This document shows, one piece after another, positions 19,001-23,679 of a stretch of 64,000 nucleotides of DNA (the first letter of the stretch is position 1; each line of letters starts with the position of its first letter). Source of the DNA: Escherichia coli (GTDB taxonomy: Bacteria; Pseudomonadota; Gammaproteobacteria; Enterobacterales; Enterobacteriaceae); the NCBI RefSeq assembly GCF_009931435.1, contig NZ_CP043414.1; one strand, 5' to 3'. The position numbers are program-made.

Positions 19001-22000
19001 GTGCGGTTTTACCTTCAAACGGCACATTCAGGGTGCGCCGGACAAAACTTGCTCCACCGTCACAGGCTACCAGCCACTGGGCTTTGACCGTTTCCCGCTG
19101 CCCTTCTGCCGTTTTCAGATACAAGGTCACTTCGTCATCTTGCTGGCTGAAGGCCTCCAGCTCGCGGGAAAACAGGCAGCGCACATTCGGAAACCGCGAC
19201 AACCCTTCCAGCATCACCGCATCGACCTGCGGCTGAATAAAGGCGTTACGACGCGGCCAGCCAAATTCATCGGTCATTGGCTGAATATCAGCAAAACAGC
19301 GGCCTTTTGGGGTAAGAAAACGCATCGCATGCCACGGCGTAGTGTGCGGCAGAACATTATCGACAAGGCCAACCGACTGCATGGTGCGCAGCGCCTCGTC
19401 ATCAATTCCAATCGCGCGTGGATAGTCGATCAACTTATCGAGTTTCTCCACCACCAGCACGTCAATGCCCATCTGGCCGAGATAGTTCGCCATCATCAGC
19501 CCGACCGGACCGGCACCAGCGATCGCCACCTGAACGCAATGGTTAACAGCAGGCTGGATGTCAGGGTGTTGTATTGCCATTTCAGTACCTCACGACTCGG
19601 ACAAAATGCCGTTGCGCGCACAGTTCTACGCAACTTATTTTGTTAAAAACATGTAAATGATTTTTTATTGTGCGCTCAGTATAGGAAGGGTGTTTTCGGC
19701 TACAATCAAAACATGCCTGAGTGTGCACCAAGTGCACAACGTTGTTTTAACTATAGAAATGTCAATTAATATGCAGAAAGATGAGCAGACGGAATACAAA
19801 ACCGTGCGCGGCTTAACCCGCGGTCTAATGTTATTAAATATGTTAAATAAACTCGATGGCGGTGCCAGCGTCGGGCTGCTGGCGGAGCTCAGCGGCCTGC
19901 ATCGCACCACTGTGCGGCGACTGCTGGAAACGCTGCAGGAAGAGGGATATGTCCGGCGCAGTACCTCCGATGACAGTTTTCGTCTGACCATCAAAGTGCG
20001 GCAATTAAGCGAAGGATTTCGTGACGAACAATGGATTTCTGCACTGGCAGCCCCGCTGCTGGGCGATCTGTTGCGCGAAGTGGTATGGCCGACAGATGTG
20101 TCCACGCTGGATGTTGATGCAATGGTGGTACGCGAAACCACCCACCGTTTCAGCCGTTTATCTTTTCACCGGGCAATGGTCGGACGGCGTTTACCGCTCC
20201 TGAAAACCGCCTCGGGCCTGACCTGGCTGGCCTTTTGCCCGGAACAAGAACGCAAGGAGTTAATCGAAATGTTAGCCGCCCGTCCCGGTGATGACTATCA
20301 GCTGGCACGGGAGCCGTTAAAGCTGGAAGCCATTCTGGCGCGCGCACGCAAAGAGGGTTACGGACAGAACTACCGTGGCTGGGATCAGGAAGAGAAGATC
20401 GCCTCCATTGCCGTGCCCCTACGCAGTGAACAACGGGTGATTGGCTGTCTGAATCTGGTGTATATGGCAAGCGCAATGACCATCGAACAGGCAGCGGAAA
20501 AGCATCTTCCGGCGCTACAACGGGTAGCAAAACAGATCGAAGAAGGGGTTGAATCGCAGGCTATTCTGGTGGCCGGACGGCGAAGCGGCGTGCATTTACG
20601 CTAGTTGCGCCAATGTGTAATTTGGCCCATTCTCATCGTTATTCGCCCATTTGCCCACATGCACAGTACGGGCTGCACGCTACGCTAATGCCATCAATAC
20701 TGTGATGTGGAGCAAATCATGAAAATTACTCAAATTCGTAATGCCACCCAAATTATCCAATACGCTGGCAAAACATTTCTTATTGACCCGTTACTCGCGC
20801 CTAAAGGAAGTTATCCGGGTTTTGCCGGAACGGCACGCGCAGAAATCCGCAATCCAACGGTAGAATTACCGTGCGATTTAACAACGTTACTCAACGTTGA
20901 CGCCCTAATAGTGACCCATTTGCATGAAGATCACTGGGACGAAACAGCCTCCCGCGTCGTCCCCAAAGATAAACGGATTTATGTGCAAAATGAGCAAGAT
21001 GCTGAATCACTGCATAAACAAGGATTTACGCATCTTACCGTACTTGCCGACGAGACTAAATTTGGCGATATTACTCTGCATAAAACGACAGGGCAGCACG
21101 GCTCCGATCACACCTATGCAGACCCGGCTATGGCGAAGCGTTTAGGCGCAGCCTGCGGCGTTGTTTTCCAGCACCCGACAGAGAAAACGCTCTATCTGGC
21201 TGGCGATACCCTCTGGCGTGATGACGTCGAGGCTACAATGCTAACTTTCCAACCAGAAGTGGTGGTGTTGAATGCCGGATTTGCGCATGTTCTGGGGCAT
21301 GGCGCGATAATTATGGGAGCTGAAGATATTCTCAAAACACATTTTACCCTGCCAGAAGCGCAAATTGTCGCGACACATATGGAGGCCGTAAACCACTGTT
21401 TGCTGACGCGTGATGCGCTCAAGGAATACGCCAGAGATAATCAAATTATCGAATTTGTGAACGTACCAGAAGATGGTGAAACGTTGACATTCTAATTCGG
21501 AGATAAAGAGTGTTATGCGCCCGCTAACTGTTGCCATTATCGCCGTTGCCGGTTTTAGTCCTTTTCACCTTTCCGTACCGTTTATCGTGTTTAGCGAAAA
21601 AATGGCGGAGAAAAAACGCTTTCATGTAATTATCTGCGCTGAAAAGCCGGGAAACGTGGACTCTGCCGATGGGTTTTCCGTAACCGCCACCCATGACTAT
21701 ACGGCAGTCATCCAGGCGGATATTGTGATAATTCCTTACTGGGGAACAATTACACAAAAACCGCCACAAAAACTGCTGGAAGCCTTAACGACCGCACGAG
21801 ATAACGGGGCACAGATTGTCGGGCTTTGCCTGGGCACGTTTGTGCTCGGCTATGCAGGTTTACTGAACAATAAGCGTGCTGCCACGCACTGGGAGTTCGA
21901 GCGTGAATTTCAGGCACGTTTTCCACAAACACATCTGGATATTAACGCGTTGTATGTAGACGATGATGGCATTATTACCTCTGCCGGTACTGCCGCGGCG

Positions 22001-23679
22001 CTGGATTGCTGTTTGTATATTGTTCGGCAACATTTTGGCAGCGACTATGCTAACCATATTGCCCGACGGATGGTCGTACCGCCATATCGCACCGGCGGTC
22101 AGGCGCAGTTTATAGAGCAACCGGTGCCGAAAAATACCCATGATGAACGCATTAACCTCCTGCTGGATTACCTGCGGCAAAACATTGCGCAACAGCATGA
22201 TCTCGACTCGCTGGCTCAGCGAGTAATGATGAGTCGCCGCACACTAACCCGTCATTTTATGAAAGCGACCGGTTCGAGTATCGCCGAATGGCTCATCACT
22301 GAACGCTTACGCCGTAGCCAGGAACTGTTGGGATCCAGTCAGTTGCCCGTTGAGCGGATAGCGGCTGAGGTGGGTTTTCTCTCACCTGTGACCTGGCGTC
22401 AGCATTTTAAATCTCACTTCGGCGTCAGCCCCGCAGAATGGCGCAAAACCTTTCGTGGTATGGCATGATAGCGCCCGGAAGAAAGTCAATTCAGGGTGGT
22501 GAATGTGAAACCAGTAACGCTATACGATGTCGCGGAGTATGCCGGTGTCTCTTATCAGACCGTTTCCCGCGTGGTGAATCAGGCCAGCCACGTTTCAGCG
22601 AAAACGCGGGAAAAAGTGGAAGCGGCGATGGCGGAGCTAAATTACATTCCCAACCGCGTAGCACAACAGTTAGCGGGCAAACAGTCGTTGCTGATTGGCG
22701 TTGCCACCTCCAGTCTGGCCCTGCACGCACCGTCGCAAATTGTCGCGGCGATTAAATCTCGCGCCGATCAACTGGGTGCCAGCGTGGTGGTGTCGATGGT
22801 AGAAAGAAGCGGTGTCGAAGCCTGTAAAGCGGCAGTACACAATCTTCTCGCGCAACGCGTAAGTGGTCTGATCATCAACTATCCGCTGGATGACCAGGAT
22901 GCCATTGCTGTGGAGGCAGCCTGCGCTAATGTTCCGGCGCTATTTCTTGATGTCTCTGACCAGACTCCCATCAACAGTATTATTTTTTCCCATGAAGACG
23001 GTACACGGCTGGGCGTAGAGCATTTGGTCGCATTGGGTCACCAGCAAATCGCGCTGTTAGCGGGCCCATTAAGTTCTGTCTCGGCGCGTCTGCGTCTGGC
23101 GGGCTGGCATAAATATCTTAAACACAATCAAATTCAACCGATAGCGGAACGGGAAGGCGACTGGAGCGCCATGTCCGGTTTTCATCAAACCATGCAGATG
23201 CTGAATGAGGGCATCATTCCTACTGCGATGCTGGTTGCCAACGATCAGATGGCGCTGGGTGCAATGCGCGCCATTACCGAGTTCGGGCTGCGCGTCGGCG
23301 CGGATATCTCGGTAGTGGGATACGACGATACCGAAGACAGCTCGTGTTATATCCCGCCATTAACGACCATCAAACAGGATTTTCGCCTGCTTGGGCAAAC
23401 CAGCGTGGACCGCTTGCTGCAACTCTCTCAGGGCCAGGCAGTGAAGGGCAATCAGCTGTTGCCCGTCTCACTGGTGAAACGAAAAACCACCCTGCCACCC
23501 AATACGCAAACCGCTTCTCCCCAGGCGTTGGCTGATTCCTTAATGCAGCTGGCGCGACAAATTTCCCGACTGGAAAGCGAGCAGTGAGCGCAACGCAATT
23601 AATGTGAGTCAGCTCACTCATTAGGCACCCCAGGCTTTACACCTGATGTGTCCGACTCGTATGTTGTATGAAATTGTGA

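What the first reader, a model, noticed from the sequence alone, without database searches (positions are those of the whole stretch)
20605..22504. lacI promoter lies inside the 3' end of a GlxA/AraC-type regulator gene; K-12 appears to retain only the fossil tail
Between mhpR and lacI this strain carries an MBL-fold hydrolase gene and a GlxA-family regulator gene that K-12 lacks. The regulator ends ...AEWRKTFRGMA-stop, and the nucleotides encoding these last residues (gaatggcgcaaaacctttcgtggtatggcatga) are, as I recall, nearly identical to the classical K-12 lacI promoter (gaatggcgcaaaacctttcgcggtatggcatgatagcgcccgg). The lacI -10 CATGAT overlaps the regulator stop codon. This implies the textbook lacI promoter is the remnant 3' end of a gene deleted in the K-12 lineage, and that in this strain lacI may also receive read-through transcription from the upstream pair.
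Basis: partly seen in the sequence, partly recalled or inferred. Interest (0 to 1): 0.6.

Follow-up and report, generated by a model that had tools for sequence, protein, structure and literature searches.

The report
lacI promoter is a fossil gene tail
The textbook promoter of the lac repressor gene sits inside the last ten codons of a neighbouring regulator gene (ovrA), which this strain and E. coli O157:H7 still carry; most E. coli, including K-12, have deleted the gene and kept only that 33-base tail.

Summary
Between mhpR and lacI the window carries an MBL-fold hydrolase gene (20719-21495) and a GlxA/AraC-type regulator gene (21515-22468). This pair is the known "O-island 19" of EHEC O157:H7 (z0443 and ovrA).

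The regulator's last ten codons plus its stop (22436-22468, EWRKTFRGMA*) contain the lacI promoter hexamers: -35 GCGCAA at 22441-46 and -10 CATGAT at 22464-69. K-12 has mhpR-stop, 7 unassignable bases, then exactly this 33-nt tail.

The evidence points to loss, not insertion:
- The tail encodes a C-terminal motif conserved family-wide (SP.EWR[KR]TF).
- Fourteen Citrobacter species share mhpR–MBL–ovrA–lacI–lacZ, and C. sedlakii has the identical overlap.
- A second, independent 10.7-kb deletion (Nissle, E2348/69) left a longer 99-nt tail, 100% identical to O157 ovrA.
- ovrA is under strong purifying selection, with divergence of the same order as, though lower than, its flanks.
- No mobility features were found.

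Among 5426 complete E. coli genomes, 4460 have the K-12 junction (also seen in reference strains 042, IAI39 and JJ1886), 487 the 99-nt form and 435 the intact pair.

Read-through into lacI is plausible, since the 36-nt gap holds no terminator, but it is untested. I found no paper that notes the promoter–tail relationship.

The parts
19771..20604 (+). mhpR, left flank. Its stop codon TAG (20602-20604) is the left edge of the segment missing in K-12.
   Evidence: ORF list. 97.8% aa identity to K-12 MhpR. BLAST homology to K-12 ends at 20600.
20622..20660 (+). Conserved intergenic motif TTGGCCCATTCTCATCGTTATTCGCCCATTTGCCCACAT upstream of the MBL gene. Probably the promoter/operator of the MBL-ovrA pair (inferred).
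   Evidence: Nearly invariant in E. coli and 5 Citrobacter species while the surrounding spacer is not. Partly kept in Kluyvera.
20719..21495 (+). MBL-fold metallo-hydrolase gene (orthologue of EDL933 z0443)
   Evidence: Pfam Lactamase_B_2, E=1.9e-10. PGAP name. Paired with the regulator across Proteobacteria. dN/dS 0.13 against O157.
21515..22468 (+). GlxA/FtrA-like AraC-family regulator gene (orthologue of ovrA/z0442), 317 aa
   Evidence: Pfam DJ-1_PfpI 6-171 plus HTH_18 233-311. PGAP 'OvrA'. 99.7% aa identity to O157, dN/dS 0.013.
22370..22468 (+). The 99-nt ovrA tail (codons 286-317 plus stop) that survives in Nissle-type strains next to yaiL
   Evidence: PGAP pseudogene 'GlxA family... 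missing N-terminus'. Junction mapped to window 11646 | 22370. Present in 487 genomes. 100% identical to O157.
22436..22468 (+). The 33-nt ovrA tail (codons E308-A317 plus stop) that survives in K-12-type strains; it holds the lacI core promoter
   Evidence: Alignments. BLAST break at 22436. Present in 4460 genomes.
22441..22446 (+). lacI -35 hexamer GCGCAA, inside codons W309-R310-K311. The lacIq position (C22442) is the first base of the R310 codon.
   Evidence: Sequence. Identical in K-12. The hexamer assignment and lacIq come from my own knowledge (Calos 1978).
22464..22469 (+). lacI -10 hexamer CATGAT, overlapping the A317 codon and the ovrA stop TGA (22466-22468). Expected transcription start is about G22477.
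   Evidence: Sequence. Identical in K-12, O157, Nissle and C. sedlakii. The start site is taken by homology to K-12 lacI mRNA (own knowledge, Steege 1977).
22505..23587 (+). lacI (GTG start)
   Evidence: ORF list. 96.9% aa identity to K-12 LacI.
20601..22435 (.). Segment absent from K-12-type genomes (= O-island 19, 1835 bp here). In K-12 it is replaced by an altered stop codon (TGA) plus 7 nt, CACCATC.
   Evidence: The literature gives 1834 bp.
11647..22369 (.). Segment absent from Nissle/E2348-69-type genomes (10.7 kb: mhpT to mhpR, MBL, ovrA codons 1-285)

Best explanation
Shown. The ancestral layout of this locus, shared by E. coli and Citrobacter, is mhpR – MBL hydrolase – ovrA – lacI – lacZYA. 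In it the weak constitutive sigma-70 promoter of lacI is embedded in the last ten codons of ovrA. The -35 hexamer is built from the conserved Trp-Arg-Lys codons of the AraC-type DNA-binding domain. The -10 hexamer is built from the last codon plus the stop codon.

Shown. One 1.83-kb deletion, now present in about 82% of complete E. coli genomes including K-12, removed everything from the mhpR stop codon to ovrA codon 307. A second, independent 10.7-kb deletion in Nissle-type strains removed the mhp cluster, the MBL gene and ovrA codons 1-285. Both stop short of the core promoter. The 'intergenic' lacI promoter of K-12 is therefore a 33-nt fossil of ovrA coding sequence.

Inferred. Deletions that also removed the promoter would have abolished repressor synthesis and been selected against.

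Inferred. In strains that keep the pair (this window, O157:H7, O55:H7, O145:H28), lacI is transcribed from the same embedded promoter. Because only 36 nt with no terminator separate the ovrA stop from the lacI start, it probably also receives read-through from the MBL-ovrA transcript.
For: - K-12 tail. The 33-nt tail equals ovrA codons 308-317 plus stop, in frame. It has one synonymous difference from the window and none from O157.
- Conserved C-terminus. The tail encodes SP.EWR[KR]TF[RG]G, conserved in about 80 homologues from Citrobacter to Aeromonas, Geomonas, Marinobacter and Massilia, none of the non-Citrobacter ones being next to a lacI. Pfam HTH_18 extends to residue 311.
- Synteny. Fourteen Citrobacter species have MBL-ovrA upstream of lac genes: lacI in 13, and lacZ without lacI in Citrobacter sp. 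R56. mhpR lies upstream wherever the fetched DNA reaches that far.
- C. sedlakii. It has the same 36-39-nt gap and GAATGGCGAAAAACCTTTCGCGGTATGGCATGATAGCG.
- Independent remnant. The Nissle-type 99-nt remnant is annotated by PGAP as a truncated GlxA-family gene. It has a clean junction at codon 286, is 100% identical to O157 over 135 nt, and occurs in 487 genomes.
- One deletion event. The K-12 junction TGA-CACCATC-GAATGG is identical in K-12, IAI39, 042 and JJ1886 and occurs in 4460 genomes.
- Long residence. Window and O157 are colinear over 3817 nt with no indel. For ovrA, dN/dS is 0.013 and dS 0.105; flanking genes have dS 0.16-0.18.
- No mobility signs. Single-copy and chromosomal in all 435 carriers; no phage copy; GC unremarkable.
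- Read-through. No terminator-like site lies between ovrA and lacI.
Against: - No representative genome of any other Escherichia species gave a full-length OvrA match. Ancestry within the genus therefore rests on the E. coli remnants and on Citrobacter.
- The island genes are less diverged between the window and O157 (dS 0.06-0.10) than the flanks are (0.16-0.18). This leaves room for exchange of the island between lineages by homologous recombination.
- The 7 nt CACCATC at the K-12 junction has no identifiable source.
- In most Citrobacter a methyltransferase gene sits between ovrA and lacI. It separates the -35 from the -10. So lacI can be expressed without the ovrA-borne -35, which weakens the 'promoter had to be spared' argument.
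- Promoter use and read-through were not measured.
Confidence: 0.85

Rival explanations
1. Recent horizontal insertion. On this reading K-12 shows the empty ancestral site. A two-gene island landed upstream of lacI in O157 and a few other lineages, and the incoming regulator gene acquired its last codons by reading into the pre-existing lacI promoter.
For: The literature treats OI-19 as an O157 'genomic island'. The pair is in only 8% of complete genomes. A 13-nt, 85% complementary inverted repeat sits at the two edges. Distant paralogues of the module occur on plasmids.
Against: - The tail encodes the family-wide conserved C-terminus, which a pre-existing promoter would not encode by chance.
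- Nissle-type strains keep 99 nt of the gene.
- Citrobacter shares the synteny and the overlap.
- dS is of the same order as in the flanks, and purifying selection is strong.
- No mobility genes or direct repeats were found.
- The inverted repeat is imperfect in O157 and absent in Citrobacter, and its right arm is fixed by the conserved AEWRK codons.
Confidence: 0.03
2. Loss then regain. The tail is a fossil, as in the main explanation. But the ancestor of E. coli sensu stricto had already lost the pair, and the O157/O55/O145 group regained it by homologous recombination from a divergent Escherichia lineage such as the one in this window.
For: The K-12-type junction is found in reference strains I know as phylogroups A, D, F and B2. 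The island is less diverged between window and O157 than the flanks are. The locus is clearly mosaic: Nissle lacI is 100% identical to K-12 lacI although the two carry different deletions.
Against: The Nissle-type 99-nt remnant is identical to the O157 allele and differs from the window allele at 3 sites. An O157-type ovrA was therefore present in the ancestry of those strains. O157's tail and leader carry the K-12/Nissle SNPs, not those of the window. No recombination breakpoint is visible in the difference profile.
Confidence: 0.1
3. In island-bearing strains the embedded promoter is irrelevant. lacI is expressed essentially as the third gene of an MBL-ovrA-lacI operon, and the promoter became important only after the deletion.
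For: The gap is 36 nt with no terminator. z0443 is well expressed and 10-fold RpoS-dependent in EDL933.
Against: The hexamers and the 17-nt spacing are identical to the K-12 promoter, which works. C. sedlakii conserves the -10 exactly and the -35 at 5 of 6 positions. No expression data were available.
Confidence: 0.15

Closest known systems
O-island 19 of EHEC O157:H7 EDL933 (z0443 and z0442 = ovrA; Liu et al. 2020, J Infect Dis, cited in PMC8565820 and PMC10877973)
   Same: Same locus and same two genes, between mhpR and lacI. Nucleotide identity is 97.5-97.9%, OvrA is 99.7% identical, and the layout is colinear with no indel.
   Different: The window allele comes from a different, more divergent lineage. 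The literature describes OI-19 as an island unique to EHEC relative to K-12. It does not mention, in the papers I could read, that the lacI promoter lies in ovrA or that K-12 keeps its tail.
The K-12 lacI promoter (PlacI; -35 GCGCAA, -10 CATGAT; lacIq = GTGCAA) – own knowledge: Calos 1978, Steege 1977
   Same: Identical hexamers and 17-nt spacing. One spacer substitution and one leader substitution.
   Different: Here the promoter is intragenic. Sequence upstream of about -41 is ovrA coding sequence instead of the mhpR 3' end. A lacIq-type change would also be an R310C substitution in OvrA.
GlxA/FtrA-type AraC-family regulators (DJ-1/PfpI-like N-terminal domain plus HTH_18)
   Same: Same two-domain architecture. 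The best NCBIfam match is FtrA, E=7e-97.
   Different: The score of 324 bits is below the FtrA equivalog cut-off of 425, so it is a relative and not FtrA itself. It forms a conserved pair with an MBL-fold hydrolase.
Truncated-gene remnants left by deletion, as annotated by PGAP ('incomplete; missing N-terminus')
   Same: The Nissle-type 99-nt piece is annotated exactly this way.
   Different: The K-12 piece (33 nt) is too short to be annotated, and it is functional as a promoter.

Membership tests
O-island 19 (ovrA-z0443) of EHEC O157:H7 | Lies between mhpR and lacI, about 1.83 kb, two ORFs on the lacI strand | tested here: met
   1835 bp here against 1834 bp in PMC8565820.
O-island 19 (ovrA-z0443) of EHEC O157:H7 | Orthology to O157 sequences | tested here: met
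   97.5-97.9% nt identity, OvrA 99.7% aa, MBL 98.1% aa, no indels.
O-island 19 (ovrA-z0443) of EHEC O157:H7 | OvrA binds the LEE1 promoter and activates ler | not testable with these tools
   Reported for O157. Whether this strain has a LEE is unknown.
GlxA/FtrA-type AraC-family regulator | N-terminal DJ-1/PfpI-like domain plus C-terminal double HTH (HTH_18) | tested here: met
   Pfam PF01965 at 6-171 (7e-12) and PF12833 at 233-311 (3e-19).
FtrA (NCBIfam NF006902 equivalog) | Score at or above the curated cut-off of 425 bits | tested here: not met
   324.4 bits.
K-12 lacI promoter (PlacI) | -35 GCGCAA, 17-nt spacer, -10 CATGAT, about 28 nt of leader before the GTG | tested here: met
K-12 lacI promoter (PlacI) | Transcription actually starts there in this strain | not testable with these tools
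   Needs 5'-RACE or dRNA-seq.
Horizontally acquired genomic island | Mobility genes, tRNA or direct-repeat borders, atypical composition, copies on mobile elements | tested here: not met
   None found in the ORFs or repeats. GC 47-50%. 0 of 435 copies on plasmids. No phage match. Plasmid matches are paralogues of about 66% identity only.
Horizontally acquired genomic island | Genomes lacking it show a clean empty site with no part of the island | tested here: not met
   All island-less E. coli examined keep 33 or 99 nt of ovrA.
Deletion remnant (pseudogene fragment) of ovrA | In-frame identity to the 3' end of the intact gene, and intact orthologue at the same position in relatives | tested here: met

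The most novel reading that the evidence does not exclude
lacI was originally, and in O157:H7 and this lineage still is, the distal gene of an MBL-ovrA-lacI transcription unit. Repressor dosage would then be coupled to whatever controls that operon, namely RpoS/stationary phase and the unknown ligand of OvrA. On this reading the deletion uncoupled lacI from that input, and the deletion allele was then spread by recombination into reference strains of phylogroups A, D, F and part of B2 because the uncoupling was advantageous.
Probability: 0.15. Interest if true: 0.65.

Novelty: new member of a known kind. Interest (0 to 1): 0.45.

Why it matters
The lac system is the founding model of gene regulation, and the lacI promoter (with lacIq) is present in a large share of laboratory expression vectors. 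Showing that this promoter is the coding tail of a deleted gene explains why it is so weak and non-canonical. It was shaped by codons for a conserved Trp-Arg-Lys motif and a stop codon, not by selection for promoter strength.

The result also changes how O-island 19 should be read. ovrA, studied as an 'island-encoded' virulence activator of the LEE, is an ancestral resident of the locus that most E. coli lost. It is not a gene that EHEC gained.

There is a practical consequence. O157:H7 and related strains have a different sequence context upstream of lacI, and possibly read-through into it. Quantitative lac-regulation parameters measured in K-12 therefore may not transfer to them.

Tried and rejected
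- Source of the junction filler. I looked for the 7-nt filler CACCATC (or GACACCATC, or the 17-mer with up to 3 mismatches) anywhere in the 64-kb window and found none. The exact breakpoints inside those 7-9 nt cannot be resolved.
- Inverted repeat as transposon ends. The 13-nt inverted repeat at the island edges (20605-17 and 22434-46) was considered. I rejected it as a sign of mobility. It is imperfect in O157 and absent in Citrobacter. Its right arm is dictated by the conserved AEWRK codons. Four other repeats of similar quality occur in the same 2.1 kb. Its coincidence with the deletion edges remains unexplained.
- Duplicated tail in Citrobacter. I tested whether Citrobacter species with the methyltransferase insertion carry a second, degenerate copy of the ovrA tail next to lacI. 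Local alignments were no better than shuffles (shuffles reached the score in 189 of 2000 for the best locus and in 624 or more of 2000 for the other four). Only the -10 and leader are clearly homologous.
- Extra nucleotide constraint. I looked for it on the ovrA 3' end in Citrobacter. Third-position identity is only slightly raised, 0.58 against 0.41-0.59 elsewhere, which is not informative.
- Literature. Searches for a prior statement that the lacI promoter derives from ovrA or an AraC-type gene found nothing. The primary OvrA paper is not held.
- Phylogroup of the window strain. It could not be assigned. It is only shown to be an outlier.
- UMN026. The accession was not in the collection.
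Full report
**What is in the window.** On the + strand the order is as follows:
- mhpA, on the - strand (17916-19580)
- mhpR (19771-20604)
- a 258-aa ORF (20719-21495)
- a 317-aa ORF (21515-22468)
- lacI (GTG at 22505, ending 23587)
- lacZ (from 23710)

The 258-aa protein is an MBL-fold hydrolase (Pfam Lactamase_B_2). The 317-aa protein has a DJ-1/PfpI-like domain (residues 6-171) and an AraC-type HTH_18 domain (233-311). Its best NCBIfam match is FtrA, but at 324 bits it falls below the curated cut-off of 425. 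RefSeq annotation of matching genomes calls the pair 'MBL fold metallo-hydrolase' and 'GlxA family transcriptional regulator', or in newer records 'ovrA: OI-19-encoded virulence regulator OvrA'.

The two genes are therefore O-island 19 of EHEC O157:H7 EDL933 (z0443 and z0442/ovrA). Two reviews describe it as a 1834-bp island whose regulator activates ler and the LEE.

The regulator ends ...SPAEWRKTFRGMA-TGA. Its last 33 nt (22436-22468) read GAATGGCGCAAAACCTTTCGTGGTATGGCATGA.

I fetched the K-12 MG1655 mhpR-lacI spacer and aligned it. It reads mhpR...CGT-TGA, then CACCATC, then GAATGGCGCAAAACCTTTCGCGGTATGGCATGA-TAGCGCCCGGAAGAGAGTC.... K-12 thus keeps codons E308 to A317 plus the stop codon, in frame. 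It has one synonymous difference from the window and none from O157.

By homology with the K-12 promoter (hexamer assignment from my own knowledge, Calos 1978):
- The -35 GCGCAA lies at 22441-22446, within the W309-R310-K311 codons.
- The -10 CATGAT lies at 22464-22469, over the A317 codon and the stop at 22466-22468.
- The spacer is 17 nt.
- The expected transcription start is about G22477.

BLAST puts the break between window and K-12 at 20600 | 22436.

**Loss or gain?** Five lines of evidence point to loss.

- **Conserved C-terminus.** The tail encodes SP.EWR[KR]TF[RG]G. In about 80 homologues recovered from species-representative genomes this motif is kept in Citrobacter, Kluyvera, Erwinia, Aeromonas, Geomonas, Marinobacter, Massilia and others. 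Outside Citrobacter none of these loci has a lacI neighbour. The first four retained codons fall inside the Pfam HTH_18 envelope. A pre-existing promoter would not encode this by chance.

- **Synteny.** Fourteen Citrobacter species have MBL-ovrA upstream of lac genes: lacI in 13, and lacZ without lacI in Citrobacter sp. R56. mhpA and mhpR lie further upstream wherever the fetched DNA reaches.
  - C. sedlakii has exactly the layout of the window, with the overlap GAATGGCGAAAAACCTTTCGCGGTATGGCATGATAGCG.
  - Amino-acid identities to the window are similar for MBL (76-80%), OvrA (76-80%), LacI (81-85%) and LacZ (79-81%). This is consistent with one shared history.

- **A second, independent remnant.** In Nissle 1917 and E2348/69 the mhp cluster is missing. 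lacI is preceded by 99 nt that PGAP annotates as a GlxA-family gene 'missing N-terminus'.
  - Relative to the window, this deletion removed 11647-22369 (10.7 kb) with a clean junction at ovrA codon 286.
  - The retained 135 nt are 100% identical to the O157 ovrA 3' end and spacer.
  - Because it keeps 66 nt more of ovrA than K-12 does, it cannot derive from the K-12 form.

- **Long residence.** Window and O157 are colinear over 3817 nt (mhpR to lacI) without a single indel. ovrA shows dN/dS 0.013 (dS 0.105) and the MBL gene 0.13 (dS 0.064). For comparison, dS is 0.16 for mhpR and 0.18 for lacI.

- **No sign of mobility.**
  - No transposase, integrase or tRNA genes and no flanking direct repeats.
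  - One chromosomal copy in each of 435 carriers and none on a plasmid.
  - No phage match.
  - Plasmid matches are only paralogous MBL-plus-regulator pairs at about 66% identity.
  - GC is 47-50% against 53-57% in the flanks, close to the roughly 51% E. coli average as I recall it.

**Distribution in 5426 complete E. coli genomes.**

| Form | Genomes |
|---|---|
| K-12-type junction (33-nt tail) | 4460 |
| Nissle-type junction (99-nt tail) | 487 |
| Intact gene pair | 435 |

Together these account for 5382 of the 5387 genomes that match the locus at all.

- The K-12-type junction, including the unassignable CACCATC, is identical in K-12, 042, IAI39 and the ST131 strain JJ1886. I know these strains as phylogroups A, D, F and B2. 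It is therefore one deletion event that is either old or has been spread by recombination.
- The locus is visibly mosaic. Nissle and K-12 have 100% identical lacI genes yet carry different deletions.
- The intact pair occurs in O157:H7, O55:H7, O145:H28 and assorted animal and human isolates at 97.4-98.1% identity to the window. Eighteen genomes match at 99% or more.
- The window itself is an outlier. It is 94.6-95.6% identical to the four reference strains over 30-45 kb, whereas they are 96.4-97.4% identical to each other (lacI and mhpR alone). It probably comes from a deep-branching lineage. I could not assign a phylogroup.

**Mechanism.**

*Shown.*
- The lacI core promoter is physically part of ovrA coding sequence in island-bearing strains.
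- It is the only part of ovrA left in K-12.

*Inferred.*
- Both deletions spare the promoter because losing it would abolish repressor synthesis. Constitutive lac expression is costly (established knowledge, not tested here).
- In island-bearing strains lacI probably also receives read-through. The ovrA stop and the lacI start are 36 nt apart, and the terminator scan finds nothing there.
- In EDL933, z0443 is well expressed and 10-fold RpoS-dependent. Read-through could therefore make LacI dosage growth-phase dependent in those strains. None of this was measured.

*A caveat on the constraint argument.* In most Citrobacter a 202-aa methyltransferase gene on the opposite strand is inserted between the ovrA Gly315 codon and the -10. 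It separates the -35 from the -10. lacI can therefore be served by other upstream sequence.

**Side consequence.** The lacIq mutation (GCGCAA to GTGCAA, own knowledge) hits the first base of the R310 codon. In an island-bearing strain it would also make OvrA R310C, in the invariant Trp-Arg of the DNA-binding domain.

**Known or new?** The two genes, their position and the K-12 promoter are all known. The reviews I could read present OI-19 as an island unique to EHEC and say nothing about the promoter overlap or the K-12 remnant. Targeted full-text searches found no such statement, but the primary OvrA paper was not available. PGAP's pseudogene call in Nissle-type genomes shows the remnant is implicitly in the databases.

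The phenomenon is a promoter inside the upstream gene's 3' end that survives as a deletion scar. That is a known kind of thing. This instance is notable because of what the promoter is.

**Open points.**
- The origin of the 7-nt filler is unknown.
- The 13-nt imperfect inverted repeat coincides with the deletion edges, and this is unexplained.
- It is unresolved whether the O157 group kept the pair continuously or regained it by recombination. The island dS is lower than the flank dS, but the Nissle remnant matches the O157 allele.
- No other Escherichia species representative has the full gene.

Noticed in passing
window 20622-20660: A 39-nt motif (TTGGCCCATTCTCATCGTTATTCGCCCATTTGCCCACAT, with repeated GCCCA units) about 60-95 nt upstream of the MBL start. 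It is almost invariant between E. coli and five Citrobacter species, while the rest of the spacer is not conserved. It is partly kept in Kluyvera. Likely the operator/promoter of the MBL-ovrA pair.
   Followed up: partly
window 20605-20617 and 22434-22446: A 13-nt, 85% complementary inverted repeat (TTGCGCCAATGTG / CAGAATGGCGCAA) sits exactly at the two edges of the segment deleted in K-12. It is imperfect in O157 and absent in Citrobacter. The right arm is the conserved AEWRK codons and the lacI -35. Probably chance, but the positional coincidence is unexplained.
   Followed up: partly
whole window (compared with L001, L083-L090): The window is 94.6-95.6% identical to reference strains K-12, 042, IAI39 and JJ1886 over 30-45 kb, while those are 96.4-97.4% identical to each other. 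lacI and mhpR show the same pattern. Only 18 of 5426 complete genomes match at 99% or more. The strain looks like a deep-branching E. coli lineage; phylogroup not determined.
   Followed up: partly
L002 6136-7218 vs L001 1429-2511: Nissle-type lacI (strain EcN_Sk) is 100% identical over 1083 nt to K-12 lacI, although the two carry different upstream deletions. This shows recombination or mosaicism at the lac locus.
   Followed up: no
L003 6961-7569 (- strand); likewise L016 6948-7556: In most Citrobacter species a 202-aa class-I-like methyltransferase gene, convergent with ovrA, is inserted between the ovrA Gly315 codon and the lacI -10. It splits the ancestral promoter. C. youngae ATCC 29220 has only about 112 nt there.
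   Followed up: partly
window 46937-52199: About 5.3 kb with no counterpart in K-12, between the yahK and yahJ homology blocks. At the same place IAI39 carries a sugar ABC transporter with an AI-2-type binding protein and an ASCH-domain gene. The content of the window segment was not examined.
   Followed up: no
window 8102-8267: K-12 has about 5.2 kb here (yaiO, yaiX::IS2, yaiP, yaiS; K-12 379985-385193) that the window lacks. JJ1886 also goes straight from frmR to tauA.
   Followed up: no
window 1659-4611: Only 86.7% identity to K-12 in the hemB/yaiT region, far below the 94-97% seen in the rest of the window. A divergent autotransporter allele is likely.
   Followed up: no
window 10716-11032, 12988-13270, 35029-35358, 40015-40117, 54654-55111: Clusters of tandem repeat units of about 90-100 nt that cross-match each other and several K-12 intergenic sites. 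They look like REP/BIME-type intergenic repeats.
   Followed up: no
plasmid records H181-H190 (e.g. NZ_CP077309.1, NC_017653.1): Paralogous MBL-hydrolase plus AraC-type-regulator pairs at about 64-66% nucleotide identity occur on 251 plasmids of E. coli, Pantoea, Salmonella, Klebsiella and others. One is a plasmid of O55:H7 RM12579, a serotype whose complete genomes carry the chromosomal pair.
   Followed up: no
L003 3243-4988 (- strand): In C. gillenii a 581-aa ORF lies on the opposite strand between mhpR and the MBL gene. By eye it resembles a ShlB/FhaC-type outer-membrane transporter; this was not tested. The left side of the pair is therefore variable among Citrobacter, whereas C. sedlakii has mhpR directly adjacent.
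   Followed up: no
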